From: Escherichia coli O157:H7
Lineage (GTDB): Bacteria > Pseudomonadota > Gammaproteobacteria > Enterobacterales > Enterobacteriaceae
DNA: 64,000 nt
Assembly: GCF_013167455.1 (NCBI RefSeq)
Contig: NZ_CP038328.1
Strand: one strand, 5' to 3'
Made by a program: the position numbers. Shown here piece by piece: positions 21,001-27,000 of this stretch (positions within the stretch are counted from its first letter, which is position 1; every line of letters begins with the position of its first letter).

Positions 21001-24000
21001 ACAGCTTGATAAGCGTGATAGTACGGCTATGGCGGGGGTTGCCTGGTATCACCACGAGCGTTGGGGAACCGTGAAAGCCTCTGCAGCTGCGGACGTTCTG
21101 GATAACAGCAACGGCTGGGTGGGGGAGCTATCGGTATTCCACAAAATGCAGATAGGTCGTCTGTCGCTGACACCTGCGCTGGGCGTTCTCTATTATGACG
21201 AGAATTTCAGTGACTATTACTATGGCATTTCAGAGAGTGAGTCCCGTCGTAGCGGTCTGGCAAGTTATTCCGCGCAGGATGCCTGGGTGCCCTATGTCAG
21301 CCTGACGGCAAAATACCCGATAGGAGAGCACGTCGTATTGATGGCGAGCGCAGGATACAGCGAGCTGCCGGAAGAGATTACCGACAGCCCGATGATTGAT
21401 CGTAATGAGAGTTTTACCTTTGTCACCGGCGTGAGCTGGCGTTTTTAATTCACCGGTGGATGTCGGTGCGGCTGGCCTACGCTCTCGCACCGACTTGTAT
21501 GCCTGATAAGACGTGTTAAGCGTCGCATCAGGCAATGTGCTCCTTACGTTGGATGCGGCGCGAGTGCCTTATCCAACCTACGGATGGCAATGCTTTTCCT
21601 CATTCACCCAGATCCGCATTTCGCCTTCACCCCGGTTGGCCCAGCTAAACCACGGGATAAAGGTCAGAGTTTGCGTCTGGCGTTTGGCTGGCGCGCTGTC
21701 GTAATGCCACAGCGGTTGCTGCTCTGGATTGCTCTGTTCATACCGGTAACCCGGTGCCTGGATTAAGATCTTATGGCTAAACAATCCCTTGCCTTCAAAT
21801 GTCGTAAATGGCGCATCGGTGGGCAGCCACAGATTATGCAGTGACTCGCCGTTGTCGGCCTTTTCCAGGCAATACACCAGCGGGCCGCGCTGAATCGCCA
21901 CTTTTCCGGCGACGTGACGCACCAGCGGGTTACCGTAAACGCGGCGTACCGGCATCGGCAAAGTCAGATTCAGCGTATCGCCCTCCTGCCATTCGCGGGT
22001 AATGTGCAAATACCCTTTACGAATATCCTGCTCGACCTCTTCCCCATTCAATATGATCTGCGGCTGTGTGCACCAGTCCGGCAGACGTAAAGCCAGCGTA
22101 TGACGTACCGGCTGGGGCGATTCAACCGCAATCGTCACCTGCTCCTGCCACGGATAGTTCCCGCTAACCCGCAGGCGCAGCGTGCCATTTTCTACCGGCA
22201 CTTCCATGCTGTTTCCTGCGTAGATGTTGATATACAACGCATCTTCACGCGGCGTGTAGAGATAATGACCAATCGAGGTCAGCACGCGGGCGATATTTGG
22301 CGGACAACAAGCGCAGCCAAACCAACGCTGGCGGATCGGTTTAACGTGATCGTAGATATGGTTGAATTTCAGCGATTTTGGATGTACTTCCAGTGGATTC
22401 ACATAGAAGAAATGTTTGCCATCCAATGCCATGCCGCCGAGCACAGTGTTGTACAGTGCGCGCTCCATCACATCGGCATATTGACTGTCGCCTTCCATTT
22501 CCAGCATTCGTCGGGCGAACATCATCAGGCCGATGGAAGCACAACTTTCGGCGTAAACCGTGTCATTCGGCAGATCGTAATCGCTGCTGAACGCTTCGCC
22601 GCTGCTTTGTGAGCCGATGCCGCCGGTAATATATAACTGACGCTGGGCCATATTGTTCCACAGCCGCAGGCAGTCCTGACGCTTGCTGTCATCGTGACTT
22701 AAACGCGCGAGATGCGCGACGCCGGTCATCAGATAGACAAAACGTACCGCGTGACCGATGGCGGTTTGCTGTTGCGCAAGGGGCAAATGTGCCTGGCTGT
22801 AGGCTTTGTCTTTCACCATCCACGCCGGGCCGTAGGTGTGCCAGTGCGATGTCTGCCCGCGCTTTTCATATTCCTGGTCGTAATAGTGCGGTTGCGCACC
22901 ACGCTGTTCGACAAAATAGTTCGTCAGCGCCAGGTAGCGCGGCTCTTCAGTCACTTCATACAGGCGCATTAGTGCCAGTTCAATTTCCGGGTGACCAGGA
23001 TAACCGTGTAACTTACTTTCATCTGGACCAAATACGCTGTCGATATGATCGGCCAGGCGGCAAACGACCCCCAGCAAGCGCCGTTTTCCCGTGGCCTGGA
23101 AGAAGGCGACTCCGGCTTCAATCAGATGACCTGCGCAGTAAAGTTCATGACACTCCGCCAGATTGCTCCAGCGTTCTTCGGGTGCTTTTACCGTAAAGTA
23201 AGTATTGAGATAGCCGTCTTCGCATTGGGCGGAGGCGATCAGTTCGATTACCTCGTCGGCGGTTTTTTCCAGTTCGGCGTCCGGCTTCTGGCACAGCGAC
23301 CAGGCTACCGCTTCCAGCCATTTGGCGACGTCGCTGTCCTGAAACACCATCCCGTAAAATTCACCCTCCTGAAGTCCGGCGGCAATGCGAAAGTTTTCAA
23401 TCGCATGGCTGGGTTCCGCTTCTGGGATACGATCGTTCAAGGCATCCCACTGATAAGGAATCACCACGTCGCGGACCAGTTGTTGGTACTGACCGAGGAA
23501 CGGATCGCTGACCGTCAGTTTATGCAGATCGACTTCCGAAATGTTCATCTTGTGCTCCTTAAGGCTGTACATGACGCTGACGCAGGTCGGTAGCTATGCG
23601 TGACATCATAGGATTATTGAGTTTGCAAAAGCGGATCGCCCCTGCCAGCAGCAGGTGGAATAGCGCAGGCAGTAATGTTTCCATCGCCGCGATCCCGCCA
23701 AGCGAACTGGCGGTCTGGTTTTCCACGCCAGGCTGGTAGGCGACAAAAATAAACAGCAGGCTGATGATCCCGGCGCTGGAGGCCCAGGCCAGCTTGATGA
23801 AAAACAGATTGAAGGCGAAGTTCATGCCGGAAGAACGTACGTGGGTTTTCCACTCGCCGTAGTCATCGGCAAAGGCCATCAATGAGAAGTGCAGTGGCAA
23901 TGTGAAGCCAAGAATCACGCCATTACCGAGGATCACCGCCAGCCACAGCGTTTGATAAGCCGGGCCGGAGGGCAGGAACCACATCAACACCGCCAGTGCA

Positions 24001-27000
24001 GCGAGGAGCAGGTTGGTGTAGTAATAAATTTTGACGGTATCGAAACGCCGCGTTAACGGGCTGACAATCACCGAGCCGATAATGGAGGCGAAGGTGACCA
24101 TGGTGAAGAACAGCGACGTGTAGCCCGTGCTGCCTTGTAAGACGTAGGTAATGAAGTACATATACCCACCGCCGCGAATGTTAAAGACGTTAATCAGCAG
24201 GAAAGACATGACCAGCATCAGCAGCAGTTGGTCGTTGTTCCGCAGCCCGGCAAGATGTTCGCGCAGGGTAAATTTCCCCATTGTGGAGAGCGGCACCCGT
24301 TCACGAACCCAGAAGAAACAGCACAGGAACATCACCACGGCAATGGCGCACAATACCCCGACGCCCAGTTGATAGCCGCGTGCAGCGTTGCCCTGACCGA
24401 AGAGAGCTACCATCCACGGTAAGCCTACCGAAACCAGAAATCCCGCTACGCCGCAGAGAACGAATCGCCAGGACTGGCAGGAGATCACTTCATTGTGGCG
24501 GGTGGTCATGGTGTTGATCCGCGCGCAGTACGGTACGTTGATGGCGGTATAACCGACTGAAAGGAGCAGGTAAGTACCGAACGCCCAGGCGATTTTTACT
24601 CCCATGCTGGCATCTGGCACGGTGAACGTCAGGATGCCGATAATGCCGATGGGAATGGCAATCCATAGCTGCCACGGACGAAAGCGCCCCCATCGGCTTT
24701 GCGTCCGGTCGGCAATGACGCCCATCACCGGGTCGGAGATGGCATCAAACACGCGCAGTGCAATAAACAGCGTGCCAACCAGCGCCGGAGTTAATCCAAA
24801 AACGTCGGTGTAGAAAAAGGTGAGAAAATTCATGATCAGGCAAGTTATTACGGTGCCGCCTGCGTCACCCAGGCCGTAGCCTATTTTTTCCCGTACAGAT
24901 AACGCATCGTCAATTTTACCTTTAGCGATATCAGCGGTAGTAATCGGTGTAGAGGTCATAGATATTCCTCGTGAATAGGGAGCAATTTTTAGTTTTATTG
25001 AAATGACCTGATTAATTCTGCCGTGAACGGGAATATCAACAAGGCGAGAAAAGAGTAAAAAAAGGTGACGATTCCGACCTGAATTTAAAAGTGTGAAATG
25101 GATCAGGTGAAATTAATGTTTTTGATTAATAATCAAAAGGTAATGTGTTTAATCATTAATGAATAAGCGGGAAATTACATATCAATGCTCGAATTATCCA
25201 TGACGTTACCGATTAAAGTGCAAAATGGTGGATTATTTATTTCCCGTGGCGTAGGGAGGCATTCTGCAAGGCGGCTGGAGTCATGGGAAATTATCTTTGT
25301 CGAAAAAGGTCGATTAACGATTCAGGAAGAAGAACGGATATTTCTGGTCGATGCGGGAGAGAGTTTATTACTCTGGCCGAACCGACAACATGTTGGGGTG
25401 GAGGATTTTCCCGCCGATCTCAAATTTTACTGGCTGCATTTTGAGGTTAAAGCGCCGGACAACGACCCTCGCTGGCTTACTCATCTTAGCGTGCCGCAAC
25501 AAACGAAGGTTGTCGATCCGCAGGCGCTGGTGGCCCTGTTTCGCCAGTTCTTAAGCGAACAGGAAAAGCATCAACGCACTCCGGCGCTGGAGTTTATTGT
25601 GCTGCTCATTTTGCAGCAGCTCACCCGTGACGCGCGTCTTGATGAACAGGCCGATGGCGCAGGCACCACCCTTGCCTGGAAAGCGCAGAAACTGATCCGC
25701 ACGCAATATCATCGCCCGCTTTCTACGGCGCTTCTGGCCCGCGAGCTGTACTGCAATGCCGATTATCTTGGGCGCGTCTACCGGCGGGTGTTTCATCTGA
25801 CGTTAACAGAAGCAATCCATCGCCAGCGGGTGCGCGAAGCCGAAAAGCTGTTAATTAGCGAAGCGCGATCGCTCACGGAAGTGGCGGCGTTGTGCGGGTT
25901 TAATGACGTTGGCTATTTCCGGCAGATTTTTCGCAAACACACCGGTTTAACGCCAGCAGCGTGGAAGCGGCGTTACAGCAAGGAACATATCAATTCGTAG
26001 TGCCGGGGCGATTTCGCTTTCGACATCACGTCTGAAACAGGTGGGGGAGAAAAATCTCCTGAAACCACTGCGTGAAACCGCGCAGGCTATTTCTAATGAA
26101 CTGGGATTTACTGTCAGGGACGACCAGGGCGCGATCACATAACGCTTTGGACAAGTGCCAAAACTTTAACATTTCCTTCGTTGGATCAAAGCAGTAGGGA
26201 CGCGCTCTCTGGCACTCTGCTGTTTTAGTGCAAAGGAGTGATCATGAACCGGTTTATTATTGCGGATGCGACGAAATGTATCGGTTGCCGTACCTGTGAA
26301 GTGGCTTGCGCAGTGTCGCATCAGGAGAATCAGGATTGCGCTGCGTTGTCACCAGACGAGTTTATTTCCCGTATTCGTGTCATTAAAGACCACAGCTGGA
26401 CCACGGCAGTAGCCTGTCATCAGTGTGAAGATGCACCGTGCGCGAATGTCTGCCCTGTTGACGCGATAAGCCGCGAACATGGGCATATTTTCGTTGAACA
26501 AACACGTTGCATTGGCTGTAAAAGCTGTATGCTGGCTTGCCCGTTTGGTGCGATGGAGGTCGTTTCTTCGCGCAAAAAGGCGAGGGCGATTAAGTGCGAT
26601 CTGTGCTGGCATCGGGAGACGGGACCGGCCTGTGTTGAAGCCTGCCCGACAAAGGCGTTGCAGTGCATGGATGTCGAGAAAGTGCAGCGGCATCGGCTAC
26701 GGCAGCAGCCTGTTTGAAACGTTTTTCCGGCGTTTCTCAACGCCGGAATAGTGCGCTTTGTTTATGCCAGATGCGGCGTAAACGCCTTATCCGGCCCACA
26801 AATTCTTGCAAATTAAATATATTGCAGAAATCATGTAGGCCTGATAAGCGTAGCGCATCAGGCAATTTTTAGTGACTTTCAGCCCAGGCTCTTTCTATCT
26901 CTTCCGCCAGAATCTTCACCCCCGCCTCAATTTTCTCCGGCTCTGGTACGTAGTTCATGCGCATACATTGATGCGTATGCGGCCACGGTTTGTCCAGCCC

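What the first reader, a model, noticed from the sequence alone, without database searches (positions are those of the whole stretch)
21578..26000. AraC regulator, GPH symporter and GH127 hydrolase module at the position of the K-12 yiaJ-sgbE cluster
Between yiaT and ysaA, where K-12 carries the eleven-gene yiaJ/yiaK-O/lyx/sgbHUE cluster, this sequence has a compact three-gene unit: a divergently transcribed AraC-type regulator and an operon of a GPH-family symporter followed by a GH127 (DUF1680, beta-L-arabinofuranosidase-like) enzyme with an AAGGAG-preceded start 10 nt after the transporter stop. This looks like a self-contained uptake and hydrolysis system for an unknown glycoside, possibly a plant-derived beta-L-arabinofuranoside. 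The substrate and inducer are not predictable from sequence.
Basis: partly seen in the sequence, partly recalled or inferred. Interest (0 to 1): 0.55.

Follow-up and report, generated by a model that had tools for sequence, protein, structure and literature searches.

The report
E. coli beta-arabinofuranoside uptake-and-hydrolysis module
This is an ordinary three-gene sugar-scavenging unit (regulator, importer, cytoplasmic GH127 enzyme), present in about 43% of complete E. coli genomes, that lies beside the K-12 yiaJ-sgbE cluster rather than replacing it; this O157-type strain deleted that cluster, and K-12 deleted the three-gene unit.

Summary
Window 21578-26000 holds a GH127 hydrolase (21578-23548, -), a GPH/MFS_2 symporter (23559-24959, -) and a divergent AraC-family regulator (25185-26000, +). 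An AAGGAG lies 6 nt before the hydrolase ATG, which starts 10 nt after the transporter stop.

The positional reading is only partly right. The module is not an alternative to the yiaJ-sgbE cluster but its neighbour. The ancestral order is yiaT-GH127-GPH-AraC-sgbE...yiaK-yiaJ-ysaA, as in strain MIN14, and about 1,700-1,900 of 5,426 complete genomes carry both. The window has an 8,987-bp deletion with CGAT microhomology. It leaves a 141-bp yiaJ remnant and is shared by 426 O157:H7/O145-type genomes. K-12 lost the three-gene unit and keeps the remnants ysaC and ysaD.

The triple is conserved in 68 Enterobacterales species in several genomic contexts, with dN/dS 0.03-0.14. The enzyme is 55% identical to the Geobacillus GH127 beta-L-arabinofuranosidase and keeps the Cys nucleophile, the Glu acid/base and the Zn site.

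Most likely function (inferred): inducible import and cytoplasmic cleavage of small beta-L-arabinofuranosides, feeding L-arabinose to araBAD. No biochemical study of the E. coli enzyme was found. It is a new member of a known kind, of modest interest.

The parts
21449..21577 (.). Intergenic spacer between the convergent yiaT and GH127 genes. It holds a REP/BIME-type element at 21500-21578, the likely 3' end and stabiliser of the operon transcript.
   Evidence: Sequence. Rfam naRNA4 (a REP-derived family) scores 58.7 bits, just under its gathering score of 59.5. This stretch varies among E. coli: matches in B2-like strains start only at about window 21495.
21578..23548 (-). GH127 glycoside hydrolase, 656 aa, with no N-terminal signal sequence. 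Predicted cytoplasmic beta-L-arabinofuranosidase (Sakai ECs_4459, WP_001026882.1).
   Evidence: Pfam finds the three GH127 domains. PDB matches: 4QJY, a Geobacillus GH127 beta-L-arabinofuranosidase, at E 1.7e-233 and 55% identity; HypBA1 (3WKW) at E 9e-150. Conserved residues are E318, E334, C336, C414, C415, H134, H186, H266 and Y382. dN/dS is 0.03-0.08.
23549..23560 (-). Junction between GPH and GH127. The Shine-Dalgarno AAGGAG (23560-23555) overlaps the GPH stop codon, and 6 nt separate it from the GH127 ATG.
   Evidence: The same gap of about 10 nt is kept in most orthologous loci (coordinates).
23559..24959 (-). Glycoside-pentoside-hexuronide (GPH) family cation symporter, 466 aa (Sakai ECs_4458, WP_000204825.1). 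Predicted importer of the glycoside.
   Evidence: TIGR00792 scores 329.6 bits against a cutoff of 231; the nearest named families, YagG and YicJ, fall below their cutoffs. PF13347 MFS_2. Aligns with MelB (4M64) at E 4e-37: the Asp55 and Asp59 equivalents are kept, Asn58 is Ser, and the sugar-site Lys18/Asp19 are not kept. dN/dS is 0.04-0.09.
24960..25184 (.). A 225-bp AT-rich divergent control region. Blocks conserved across 68 species:
- TGATTATTAA (25126-25135), inside a palindrome at 25120-25138
- a CRP-like GATC..TCACA.TTT (25088-25107)
- AGGTCGGAATCGTCACC...TACTCTTTT (25049-25080)
- CCTTGTTG (25037-25044)
- GCAGAATTAAT (25011-25021)
- the SD GAGGA (24966-24970)
   Evidence: Alignments; coordinates checked; repeats. 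No strong sigma-70 consensus was found. The CRP-like match has 2 mismatches and is not above chance on sequence alone. The promoter and operator assignments are inference.
25185..26000 (+). AraC-family regulator, 271 aa, with an N-terminal cupin ligand-binding domain and a C-terminal double HTH (Sakai ECs_4457, WP_000891843.1).
   Evidence: Pfam PF02311 (E 1.9e-9) + PF12833 (E 4e-19). NCBIfam AraC model at E 7.5e-17, well below its cutoff. It lies divergent to GPH in 68 species loci. dN/dS is 0.05-0.14.
26002..26142 (+). 3' remnant of yiaJ (plaR) and the scar of the 8,987-bp deletion that removed sgbE...yiaK and most of yiaJ. The junction microhomology CGAT is at 26009-26012. This is not part of the module, but it explains why the K-12 cluster is missing here.
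   Evidence: RefSeq pseudogene annotation. Junction mapped against strain MIN14. Translation of the remnant. The same junction occurs in 426 of 5,426 genomes.

Best explanation
This is a self-contained, inducible scavenging unit for small beta-L-arabinofuranosides.

Proposed mechanism:
1. The AraC-family protein senses the glycoside, or a product of it, through its cupin domain. It activates the divergent, intrinsically weak promoter of the two-gene operon, probably with help from CRP.
2. The GPH symporter imports the glycoside with a cation. The likeliest cargo is a di- or trisaccharide-sized molecule such as Araf-beta1,2-Ara (beta-arabinobiose) or an arabinosyl-hydroxyproline derived from plant extensins.
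3. The cytoplasmic GH127 enzyme removes the terminal beta-L-arabinofuranose. It uses a Zn-held cysteine nucleophile (C414) and a Glu acid/base (E318).
4. The released L-arabinose enters the araBAD pathway.

Shown here: the gene content, family membership, conserved catalytic residues, conserved operon architecture and purifying selection. Inferred: the substrate, the inducer, the promoter and operator assignments, the coupling ion and the link to araBAD.

Locus history. The module is the ancestral neighbour of the yiaJ-sgbE cluster. This O157-type genome deleted that cluster, and K-12-type genomes deleted the module.
For: - Families and domains.
- The enzyme matches two solved GH127 beta-L-arabinofuranosidases over its full length: 4QJY at E 1.7e-233 and 55% identity, and HypBA1 at E 9e-150. 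The aceric-acid hydrolase and the other GH127 and GH146 structures match much more weakly or only in part.
- The HypBA1 residues E322, E338, C340, C417 and C418 are all conserved. The -1 subsite residues H142, H194, H270 and Y386, which I recalled from memory, are also conserved. Their catalytic roles are described in PMC8106489.
- The N-terminus has no signal-peptide-like stretch.
- The triple is conserved in 68 of 80 species loci, with the same ~10-nt GPH-GH127 junction, and it occurs away from yiaT and sgbE in many of them, for example Kosakonia.
- A GPH+GH127 pair also occurs with a LacI-type regulator.
- dN/dS is 0.03-0.14 for all three genes.
- Conserved non-coding blocks have promoter-like spacing.
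- The B. longum precedent is import of beta-Ara2 followed by cleavage by the intracellular HypBA1 (PMC7263609).
- Locus history.
Against: - No biochemical or genetic study of the E. coli or any enterobacterial orthologue was found. The only mention is a pangenome correlation with cell invasion (PMC11879602).
- 55% identity does not fix specificity, and GH127 contains other activities. The only NCBIfam hit is aceric acid hydrolase, though at 457 bits it is far below its cutoff of 950.
- HypBA1 has a 12-residue insertion near residues 39-50 that is absent here and in the Geobacillus enzyme, so the aglycone subsite may differ.
- No GH121 or other extracellular releasing enzyme is in the locus, so the supply of substrate must come from other organisms or from plants.
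- The CRP-like site is no better than chance on sequence alone, and no consensus promoter was detected.
- The module has been lost in K-12-type strains, and one Salmonella lineage has lost the transporter. Its value is therefore niche-dependent.
Confidence: 0.6

Rival explanations
1. The architecture and logic are the same, but the enzyme's real substrate is a different glycoside. Candidates are another furanoside or branched-sugar glycoside, an anhydro-sugar, or a plant secondary-metabolite glycoside. The product would then not be L-arabinose.
For: GH127 is polyspecific. The PDB matches include a 'six-hairpin glycosidase' (6EX6) and 5MQO at E 1e-94 to 1e-114. The only NCBIfam hit is the aceric acid hydrolase model. 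The regulator's N-terminal domain and the transporter's sugar site do not resemble any characterised specificity. The locus contains no arabinose genes.
Against: The aceric-acid model scores 457 against a cutoff of 950 and aligns mainly with residues 260-657. The two best full-length matches are both beta-L-arabinofuranosidases, and the recalled -1 subsite residues are all kept.
Confidence: 0.22
2. The triple is functionally part of the neighbouring yiaK-S (lyxK/sgbHUE) L-sugar pathway. The hydrolase would release an L-sugar that the pathway consumes, so the two clusters would form one larger system.
For: The triple sits directly beside sgbE and lyxK in E. coli, Klebsiella, Salmonella, Citrobacter, Enterobacter, Raoultella, Phytobacter and Lelliottia. 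The AraC-like gene and sgbE share a terminator hairpin. SgbE is an L-ribulose-5-P 4-epimerase, the same reaction as AraD (annotation).
Against: In many species the triple occurs without sgbE or lyxK nearby, for example Kosakonia near pth-ychF. In 426 E. coli genomes, including this window, the yia-sgb cluster is deleted yet the triple is intact, and its sequence is 100% identical in the O157:H7 strains sampled. Each cluster has its own regulator and promoter region.
Confidence: 0.08
3. In E. coli the module is a decaying relic with no current function.
For: It is deleted in about 45% of genomes, where only a 190-bp remnant is left, and about 12% of genomes show no match at all. PGAP flags the hydrolase as frameshifted in B2-like strains. 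The transporter is deleted in a Salmonella lineage.
Against: All three ORFs are intact here and in 2,314 genomes. dN/dS against Escherichia whittamii is 0.035-0.064 at unsaturated dS. The 'frameshift' alters only the last 5 of 656 codons.
Confidence: 0.05
4. One reading: the triple is an alternative cassette occupying the same site as the yiaJ-sgbE cluster, an either/or replacement island.
For: In this window and in K-12, only one of the two modules lies between yiaT and ysaA.
Against: Both modules are adjacent in strain MIN14 and in about 1,700-1,900 genomes. Deletion scars are visible in both single-module states: the yiaJ remnant with CGAT microhomology in the window, and ysaC/ysaD in K-12.
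Confidence: 0.02

Closest known systems
Ara127N (PDB 4QJY/4QK0), the GH127 beta-L-arabinofuranosidase of Geobacillus stearothermophilus
   Same: Same three-domain GH127 fold family. 55% identity over 628 aligned residues, similar length and no long insertions. Both are likely intracellular; for the Geobacillus enzyme this is from memory.
   Different: From memory, the Geobacillus gene sits in a large arabinan-utilisation cluster with ABC transporters. Here the partners are a GPH symporter and an AraC-type regulator, and there are no other glycosidases.
HypBA1 (GH127) within the Bifidobacterium longum HypAA/HypBA2/HypBA1 beta-arabinooligosaccharide system
   Same: An intracellular GH127 enzyme with a Cys nucleophile, a Glu acid/base and a Cys3-Glu zinc site, all conserved here (PMC8106489). 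The logic is also shared: import a small beta-arabinoside, then cleave it in the cytoplasm (PMC7263609).
   Different: This locus has no GH121 arabinobiosidase and no GH43 enzyme. It uses a GPH symporter instead of an ABC importer with a beta-Ara2-binding protein. HypBA1 carries a 12-residue insertion near residue 45 that is absent here. Sequence similarity is lower than to the Geobacillus enzyme.
E. coli melR-melAB, and the yicJI and yagGH pairs (regulator or none, plus a GPH symporter and a cytoplasmic exo-glycosidase)
   Same: Same design: a GPH-family symporter co-transcribed with a cytoplasmic glycosidase. As with melR (from established knowledge), an AraC-family activator is transcribed divergently. 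The transporter's nearest NCBIfam families are YagG and YicJ, and it aligns with MelB.
   Different: Gene order here is transporter then hydrolase; melAB is hydrolase then transporter. The glycosidase belongs to another family (GH127, against GH36 or GH31). The MelB sugar-site residues are not conserved, and MelB Asn58 is Ser here.
K-12 pseudogenes ysaC (b4648) and ysaD (b4649)
   Same: They are the deletion remnants of this same module. ysaC is the last 102 bp of the AraC-family gene, and ysaD is 192 bp from the 3' part of the GH127 gene.
   Different: They are non-functional fragments. ysaD is only about 89% identical to intact alleles, while the flanks are 97-98% identical.

Membership tests
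CAZy GH127 (beta-L-arabinofuranosidase family) | Catalytic (alpha/alpha)6 domain plus the family's middle and C-terminal beta-sandwich domains | tested here: met
   PF07944 at E 1.5e-111, PF20736 at E 1.3e-23 and PF20737 at E 5.5e-25, covering residues 12-649. The GH146 structure 5OPJ matches only at E 9e-17, against 1e-150 to 1e-233 for GH127 structures.
CAZy GH127 (beta-L-arabinofuranosidase family) | Cysteine nucleophile and glutamate acid/base (HypBA1 Cys417 and Glu322) | tested here: met
   C414 and E318 align with them. Roles as stated in PMC8106489.
CAZy GH127 (beta-L-arabinofuranosidase family) | Cys3-Glu zinc site (HypBA1 Glu338, Cys340, Cys417, Cys418) | tested here: met
   E334, C336, C414 and C415 are conserved.
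CAZy GH127 (beta-L-arabinofuranosidase family) | Measured hydrolysis of beta-L-arabinofuranosides | not testable with these tools
   No enzymology for the E. coli protein was found in the searchable literature.
NCBIfam aceric acid hydrolase (NF049879) | Score above the curated equivalog cutoff | tested here: not met
   457 bits against a cutoff of 950. The best stretch covers residues 260-657 only.
GPH:cation symporter family (TC 2.A.2, TIGR00792) | Profile score above the curated cutoff over the full length | tested here: met
   329.6 bits against 231.35, residues 25-462. PF13347 MFS_2 at E 1.4e-71.
GPH:cation symporter family (TC 2.A.2, TIGR00792) | Helix II acidic cation-site residues (MelB Asp55 and Asp59) | tested here: met
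   In the alignment to 4M64, D..SD aligns with MelB D55..N58-D59. Both Asp are kept and Asn58 is Ser. The residue roles are from memory of the MelB literature.
GPH:cation symporter family (TC 2.A.2, TIGR00792) | Demonstrated glycoside/cation co-transport and identity of the substrate | not testable with these tools
   The specific equivalog models (YicJ-type, MelB, glucuronide transporter) are all far below their cutoffs.
AraC/XylS family sugar-responsive activators | C-terminal double helix-turn-helix plus an N-terminal AraC-type cupin ligand domain | tested here: met
   PF12833 at residues 184-263 and PF02311 at residues 28-132.
AraC/XylS family sugar-responsive activators | Binding sites next to the -35 of the target promoter and ligand-dependent activation | tested here: inconclusive
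   A 32-bp block conserved in 68 species lies just upstream of a conserved TTGTTG-N16-CAGAAT pair. No clear repeat structure was seen, and there are no binding or TSS data.
B. longum-type beta-arabinooligosaccharide utilisation system (HypAA/HypBA2/HypBA1 + ABC importer) | Extracellular GH121 beta-L-arabinobiosidase and a beta-Ara2-specific ABC transporter in the same cluster | tested here: not met
   The neighbours are yiaT, the yiaJ remnant and ysaA, and the importer is a GPH symporter. The module works like the intracellular half of that system but is not a member of it.
Alternative (either/or) replacement island at the yiaT-ysaA site | The two gene sets are mutually exclusive and occupy the same junctions | tested here: not met
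   The two sets are adjacent in MIN14. 2,314 genomes carry the triple and 4,818 carry the yia cluster out of 5,426. Deletion scars are present in both single-module states.

The most novel reading that the evidence does not exclude
The module is the first GPH-symporter-based route for beta-L-arabinofuranosides. It would let enterobacteria that lack any secreted beta-arabinosidase, including O157:H7, cross-feed on beta-arabinobiose or arabinosyl-hydroxyproline. These compounds would be released from plant extensins by other organisms (the GH121 enzymes of bifidobacteria or Xanthomonas) or by plant tissue itself. The result would be a niche advantage in the gut or on produce. This could also underlie the reported association of the GH127 gene with invasive IBD isolates (PMC11879602).
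Probability: 0.3. Interest if true: 0.45.

Novelty: new member of a known kind. Interest (0 to 1): 0.28.

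Why it matters
If the predicted function holds, about 43% of E. coli, including O157:H7 and many B2 strains but not K-12, can use a class of plant-derived beta-L-arabinofuranosides that laboratory strains cannot. This is a strain-dependent nutrient niche, relevant to gut cross-feeding with bifidobacteria and to persistence on plants. It would also give names and a function to three unnamed O157 genes (ECs_4457-4459) and to the K-12 pseudogenes ysaC and ysaD.

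The locus also shows that a difference from K-12 can arise from two independent deletions in an ancestral two-module region rather than from an island swap. The components and the logic are all conventional, so the gain is incremental.

Tried and rejected
- Literature searches found no functional study. The terms tried were GH127 or DUF1680 with E. coli, O157 or other enterobacterial genera, the Sakai tags ECs4457-4459, a guessed EDL933 tag (Z5001), and ysaC/ysaD. The search was badly designed and uninformative. The primary HypBA1 and Ara127N papers were not held.
- The consensus promoter scan found no sigma-70 site in 21400-26300. The promoter model therefore rests on cross-species conservation only.
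- The CRP consensus search showed that the candidate site (2 mismatches) is not above chance. It is kept only as a candidate because its core positions are invariant across species.
- A repeat search of the control region gave no convincing pair of AraC-type half-sites that is also conserved across species.
- The PGAP 'frameshifted' flag on the B2-strain hydrolase looked like evidence of decay. I rejected it because the 1-bp deletion is in codon 651 of 656.
- The Bradyrhizobium context gave no clear substrate clue.
- I considered structure prediction but did not run it, because a 55%-identical crystal structure exists.

Full report
**What is there.** The window is E. coli chromosome of the O157:H7 type. 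Window 20500-27000 is 100% identical to strain 2017C-4109, and the GH127+GPH stretch is 100% identical to O157:H7 strains. The local gene order, is:
- yiaU (-, 19610-20584)
- yiaT (+, 20708-21448)
- a REP-containing spacer
- a GH127 hydrolase (-, 21578-23548)
- a GPH symporter (-, 23559-24959)
- a 225-bp AT-rich spacer
- an AraC-family regulator (+, 25185-26000)
- a 141-bp 3' fragment of yiaJ (26002-26142)
- ysaA (+, 26244-26717), then avtA and malS

On the minus strand the transporter stops at TAA 23561-23559. AAGGAG lies at 23560-23555, and the hydrolase ATG at 23548-23546 follows 6 nt later. The longer frame starting at 23572 has no ribosome-binding site, and neither RefSeq nor the orthologues use it. 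In strain Sakai the three genes are ECs_4457 ('transcriptional regulator'), ECs_4458 ('permease') and ECs_4459 ('hypothetical protein').

**Families.**
- The hydrolase has all three GH127 Pfam domains.
- Its best solved relatives are the Geobacillus GH127 beta-L-arabinofuranosidase 4QJY (E 1.7e-233; 55% identity over 628 aligned residues) and Bifidobacterium longum HypBA1 (E 9e-150).
- Other GH127 and GH146 structures match much more weakly or only in part.
- The one NCBIfam hit, aceric acid hydrolase, scores 457 bits against a cutoff of 950.
- The residues that define the unusual GH127 mechanism are conserved: C414 (nucleophile), E318 (acid/base), and the zinc ligands E334, C336, C414 and C415. 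These correspond to HypBA1 Cys417, Glu322, Glu338, Cys340, Cys417 and Cys418 (roles from PMC8106489).
- Four sugar-contacting residues that I recalled from memory are also conserved. HypBA1 H142, H194, H270 and Y386 correspond to H134, H186, H266 and Y382.
- The N-terminus (MNISEVDLHKLTVSDPF...) has no signal-peptide-like stretch, so the enzyme should be cytoplasmic (inference).
- The transporter passes the curated GPH model (329.6 bits against 231), but none of the substrate-specific models. It is a Pfam MFS_2 protein.
- Aligned to MelB, the transporter keeps the two helix-II aspartates and has Ser for Asn58. It lacks the MelB sugar-site Lys18 and Asp19.
- The regulator has an AraC-type cupin domain and the double HTH.

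**Locus history: the main correction.** The module does not stand in for the K-12 cluster. In strain MIN14 (O7:H4) the order is yiaT-GH127-GPH-AraC-sgbE-sgbU-sgbH-lyxK-yiaO-N-M-L-K-yiaJ-ysaA, so both modules sit side by side. The counts among 5,426 complete E. coli genomes are:

| Feature | Genomes |
|---|---|
| GH127+GPH at >=80% coverage | 2,314 (43%) |
| Only a 190-bp fragment of the hydrolase gene, at ~89% identity | about 2,450 |
| yiaJ-sgbE cluster at >=80% coverage | 4,818 |
| The window's AraC/yiaJ-remnant junction (examples listed are O157:H7 and O145) | 426 |

It follows that about 1,700-1,900 genomes carry both modules.

Mapping the window junction against MIN14 shows one 8,987-bp deletion with a 4-bp microhomology, CGAT, at window 26009-26012. 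It starts 9 nt after the regulator's stop codon and removes the 3' arm of the GC-rich hairpin shared by the regulator gene and sgbE.

K-12-type genomes show two deletions, of about 210 bp and 4,021 bp. These leave 190 bp of the hydrolase gene and about 100 bp of the regulator gene. MG1655 annotates these fragments as the pseudogenes ysaD (b4649) and ysaC (b4648), between sgbE and yiaT.

A third arrangement is seen in the blood isolate B36, which I take to be phylogroup B2. It has aldB directly next to the hydrolase gene and lacks yiaT-yiaW, and it carries both modules. From the coverage classes, about 1,050 genomes are of this type.

**Conservation beyond E. coli.** Close orthologues (78-87% identity) occur in about 70 Enterobacterales species. 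These include Citrobacter, the Klebsiella oxytoca group, Raoultella, Enterobacter, Kluyvera, Leclercia, Lelliottia, Buttiauxella and Salmonella diarizonae. They also include plant-associated Kosakonia, Phytobacter and Pantoea. More distant orthologues (70-72%) occur in Bradyrhizobium.

In 68 of 80 loci the divergent AraC gene, the GPH gene and the GH127 gene occur together with the same short GPH-GH127 junction. In about 25 species the triple lies beside sgbE and lyxK, and in about 22 beside yiaT. In many others it has neither neighbour; in Kosakonia sacchari it sits near pth-ychF. The triple therefore behaves as a unit, and its adjacency to the yia-sgb cluster is old but not obligatory. One gut Enterobacteriaceae genome has a second GPH+GH127 pair (about 70% identity) under a LacI-type regulator. 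This again links the transporter and the enzyme.

All three genes are under strong purifying selection. dN/dS is 0.035-0.064 against Escherichia whittamii at unsaturated dS, and 0.03-0.14 against other genera.

**Control region.** Aligning the regulator-GPH spacer from 68 species shows sharply conserved blocks separated by unconserved stretches (coordinates checked):
- TGATTATTAA (25126-25135), inside a palindrome at 25120-25138
- GATC....TCACA.TTT (25088-25107)
- a 32-bp block, AGGTCGGAATCGTCACC..TACTCTTTT (25049-25080)
- CCTTGTTG (25037-25044)
- GCAGAATTAAT (25011-25021)
- the Shine-Dalgarno GAGGA (24966-24970)

My preferred reading, which is inference only, is a weak promoter TTGTTG-N16-CAGAAT (25042-25037 and 25020-25015). 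The 32-bp block would then lie at about -73 to -42, where AraC-family activators bind. The CRP-like site would be centred near -92, a geometry like araBAD or rhaBAD as I recall them. An alternative -10 is TACTCT at 25057-25052.

Three caveats apply. The consensus scan found no promoter. The CRP-like site has two mismatches and is not above chance on sequence alone. No conserved pair of half-sites was found.

**Mechanism and confidence.** I am about 90% confident that this is an inducible import-then-hydrolyse unit for a small glycoside. I am about 60% confident that the glycoside is a beta-L-arabinofuranoside, and perhaps 35% that Araf-beta1,2-Ara is the main one.

The precedent is B. longum. 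There, extracellular HypBA2 (GH121) releases beta-Ara2 from extensin-type Hyp-arabinosides, a transporter imports it, and intracellular HypBA1 splits it into L-arabinose (PMC7263609; PMC8106489). E. coli has only the intracellular half, with a GPH symporter in place of the ABC importer, so it would depend on other organisms or on plant tissue for substrate. In design, the module is closest to melR-melAB, yicJI and yagGH.

**Literature.** I found no enzymology or genetics for the E. coli or any enterobacterial orthologue. One study reports that a GH127 accessory gene co-segregates with Caco-2 invasion among IBD E. coli isolates. It infers the gene's function from HypBA1; the evidence is correlation only (PMC11879602).

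**Verdict.** The functional guess is reasonable but untested, and the positional interpretation is corrected. This is a conventional accessory sugar-utilisation unit that RefSeq already labels correctly at family level: a new, uncharacterised member of a known kind, of modest interest.

Noticed in passing
window 26002-26142 (junction 26009-26012): A yiaJ (plaR) 3' remnant marks an 8,987-bp deletion with CGAT microhomology. The deletion removes the 3' arm of the terminator hairpin shared by the AraC-like gene and sgbE, so the regulator gene now runs into the yiaJ remnant and ysaA on the same strand. Read-through is possible.
   Followed up: yes
L091 12814-13110 (K-12 MG1655 ysaC/ysaD); L003 3971-4264: The K-12-type remnant of the GH127 gene (190 bp) is only about 89% identical to intact alleles, while the flanking DNA is 97-98% identical. 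This could be old pseudogene decay or a divergent source allele. It remains unexplained.
   Followed up: partly
L004 7738-8000 (Salmonella enterica, GCA_010859705.1): The GPH transporter ORF is cleanly deleted. The promoter region, a 10-codon mini-ORF (the first bases of GPH fused to its last bases) and an intact GH127 gene remain. S. diarizonae (L037) keeps the transporter.
   Followed up: partly
L079 5545-8860 (Buttiauxella massiliensis); L076 941-2884 (Hafnia alvei): Further loci where a GH127 orthologue is present and no GPH gene was detected next to it.
   Followed up: no
L089 4219-8956 (Enterobacteriaceae bacterium MGYG-HGUT-00110): A second, paralogous GPH+GH127 pair (about 70% identity) lies under a LacI-family regulator, inserted between hisJ/argT and purF. 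The same genome also has the AraC-type triple (L035).
   Followed up: partly
L092 5362-9050 (E. coli B36): The hydrolase gene lies directly next to aldB, and yiaT, yiaU, yiaV and yiaW are absent. PGAP calls the GH127 gene 'frameshifted', but the 1-bp deletion is in codon 651 of 656 and changes only the C-terminal tail. MIN14 also has a different 3' end (659 aa).
   Followed up: partly
window 21500-21578 and 26724-26842: REP/BIME-type elements flank the region. They match Rfam naRNA4 (58.7 bits, just under the gathering score) and ES036 (49.5 bits, above it). The huge number of megablast 'places' may reflect such repeats, but I did not check this.
   Followed up: partly
window 825-1001: Four CRP-consensus sites (TGTGA-N6-TCACA) with 0-1 mismatch lie within about 180 bp. 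This is far denser than anywhere else in the window.
   Followed up: no
alignment of 68 regulator-GPH spacers (between window 24972 and 25010 in E. coli coordinates): Many species carry an extra GC-rich hairpin (consensus CCCGCTAATAAGCGGG) in the GPH 5' leader. It is absent from E. coli.
   Followed up: no
L082 4701-8953 (Bradyrhizobium algeriense): The 72%-identical GH127 gene lies just downstream of an S9 (oligopeptidase B-like) peptidase gene, with no GPH or AraC partner. A peptidase next to a putative Hyp-arabinoside hydrolase is suggestive, but this was not tested.
   Followed up: no
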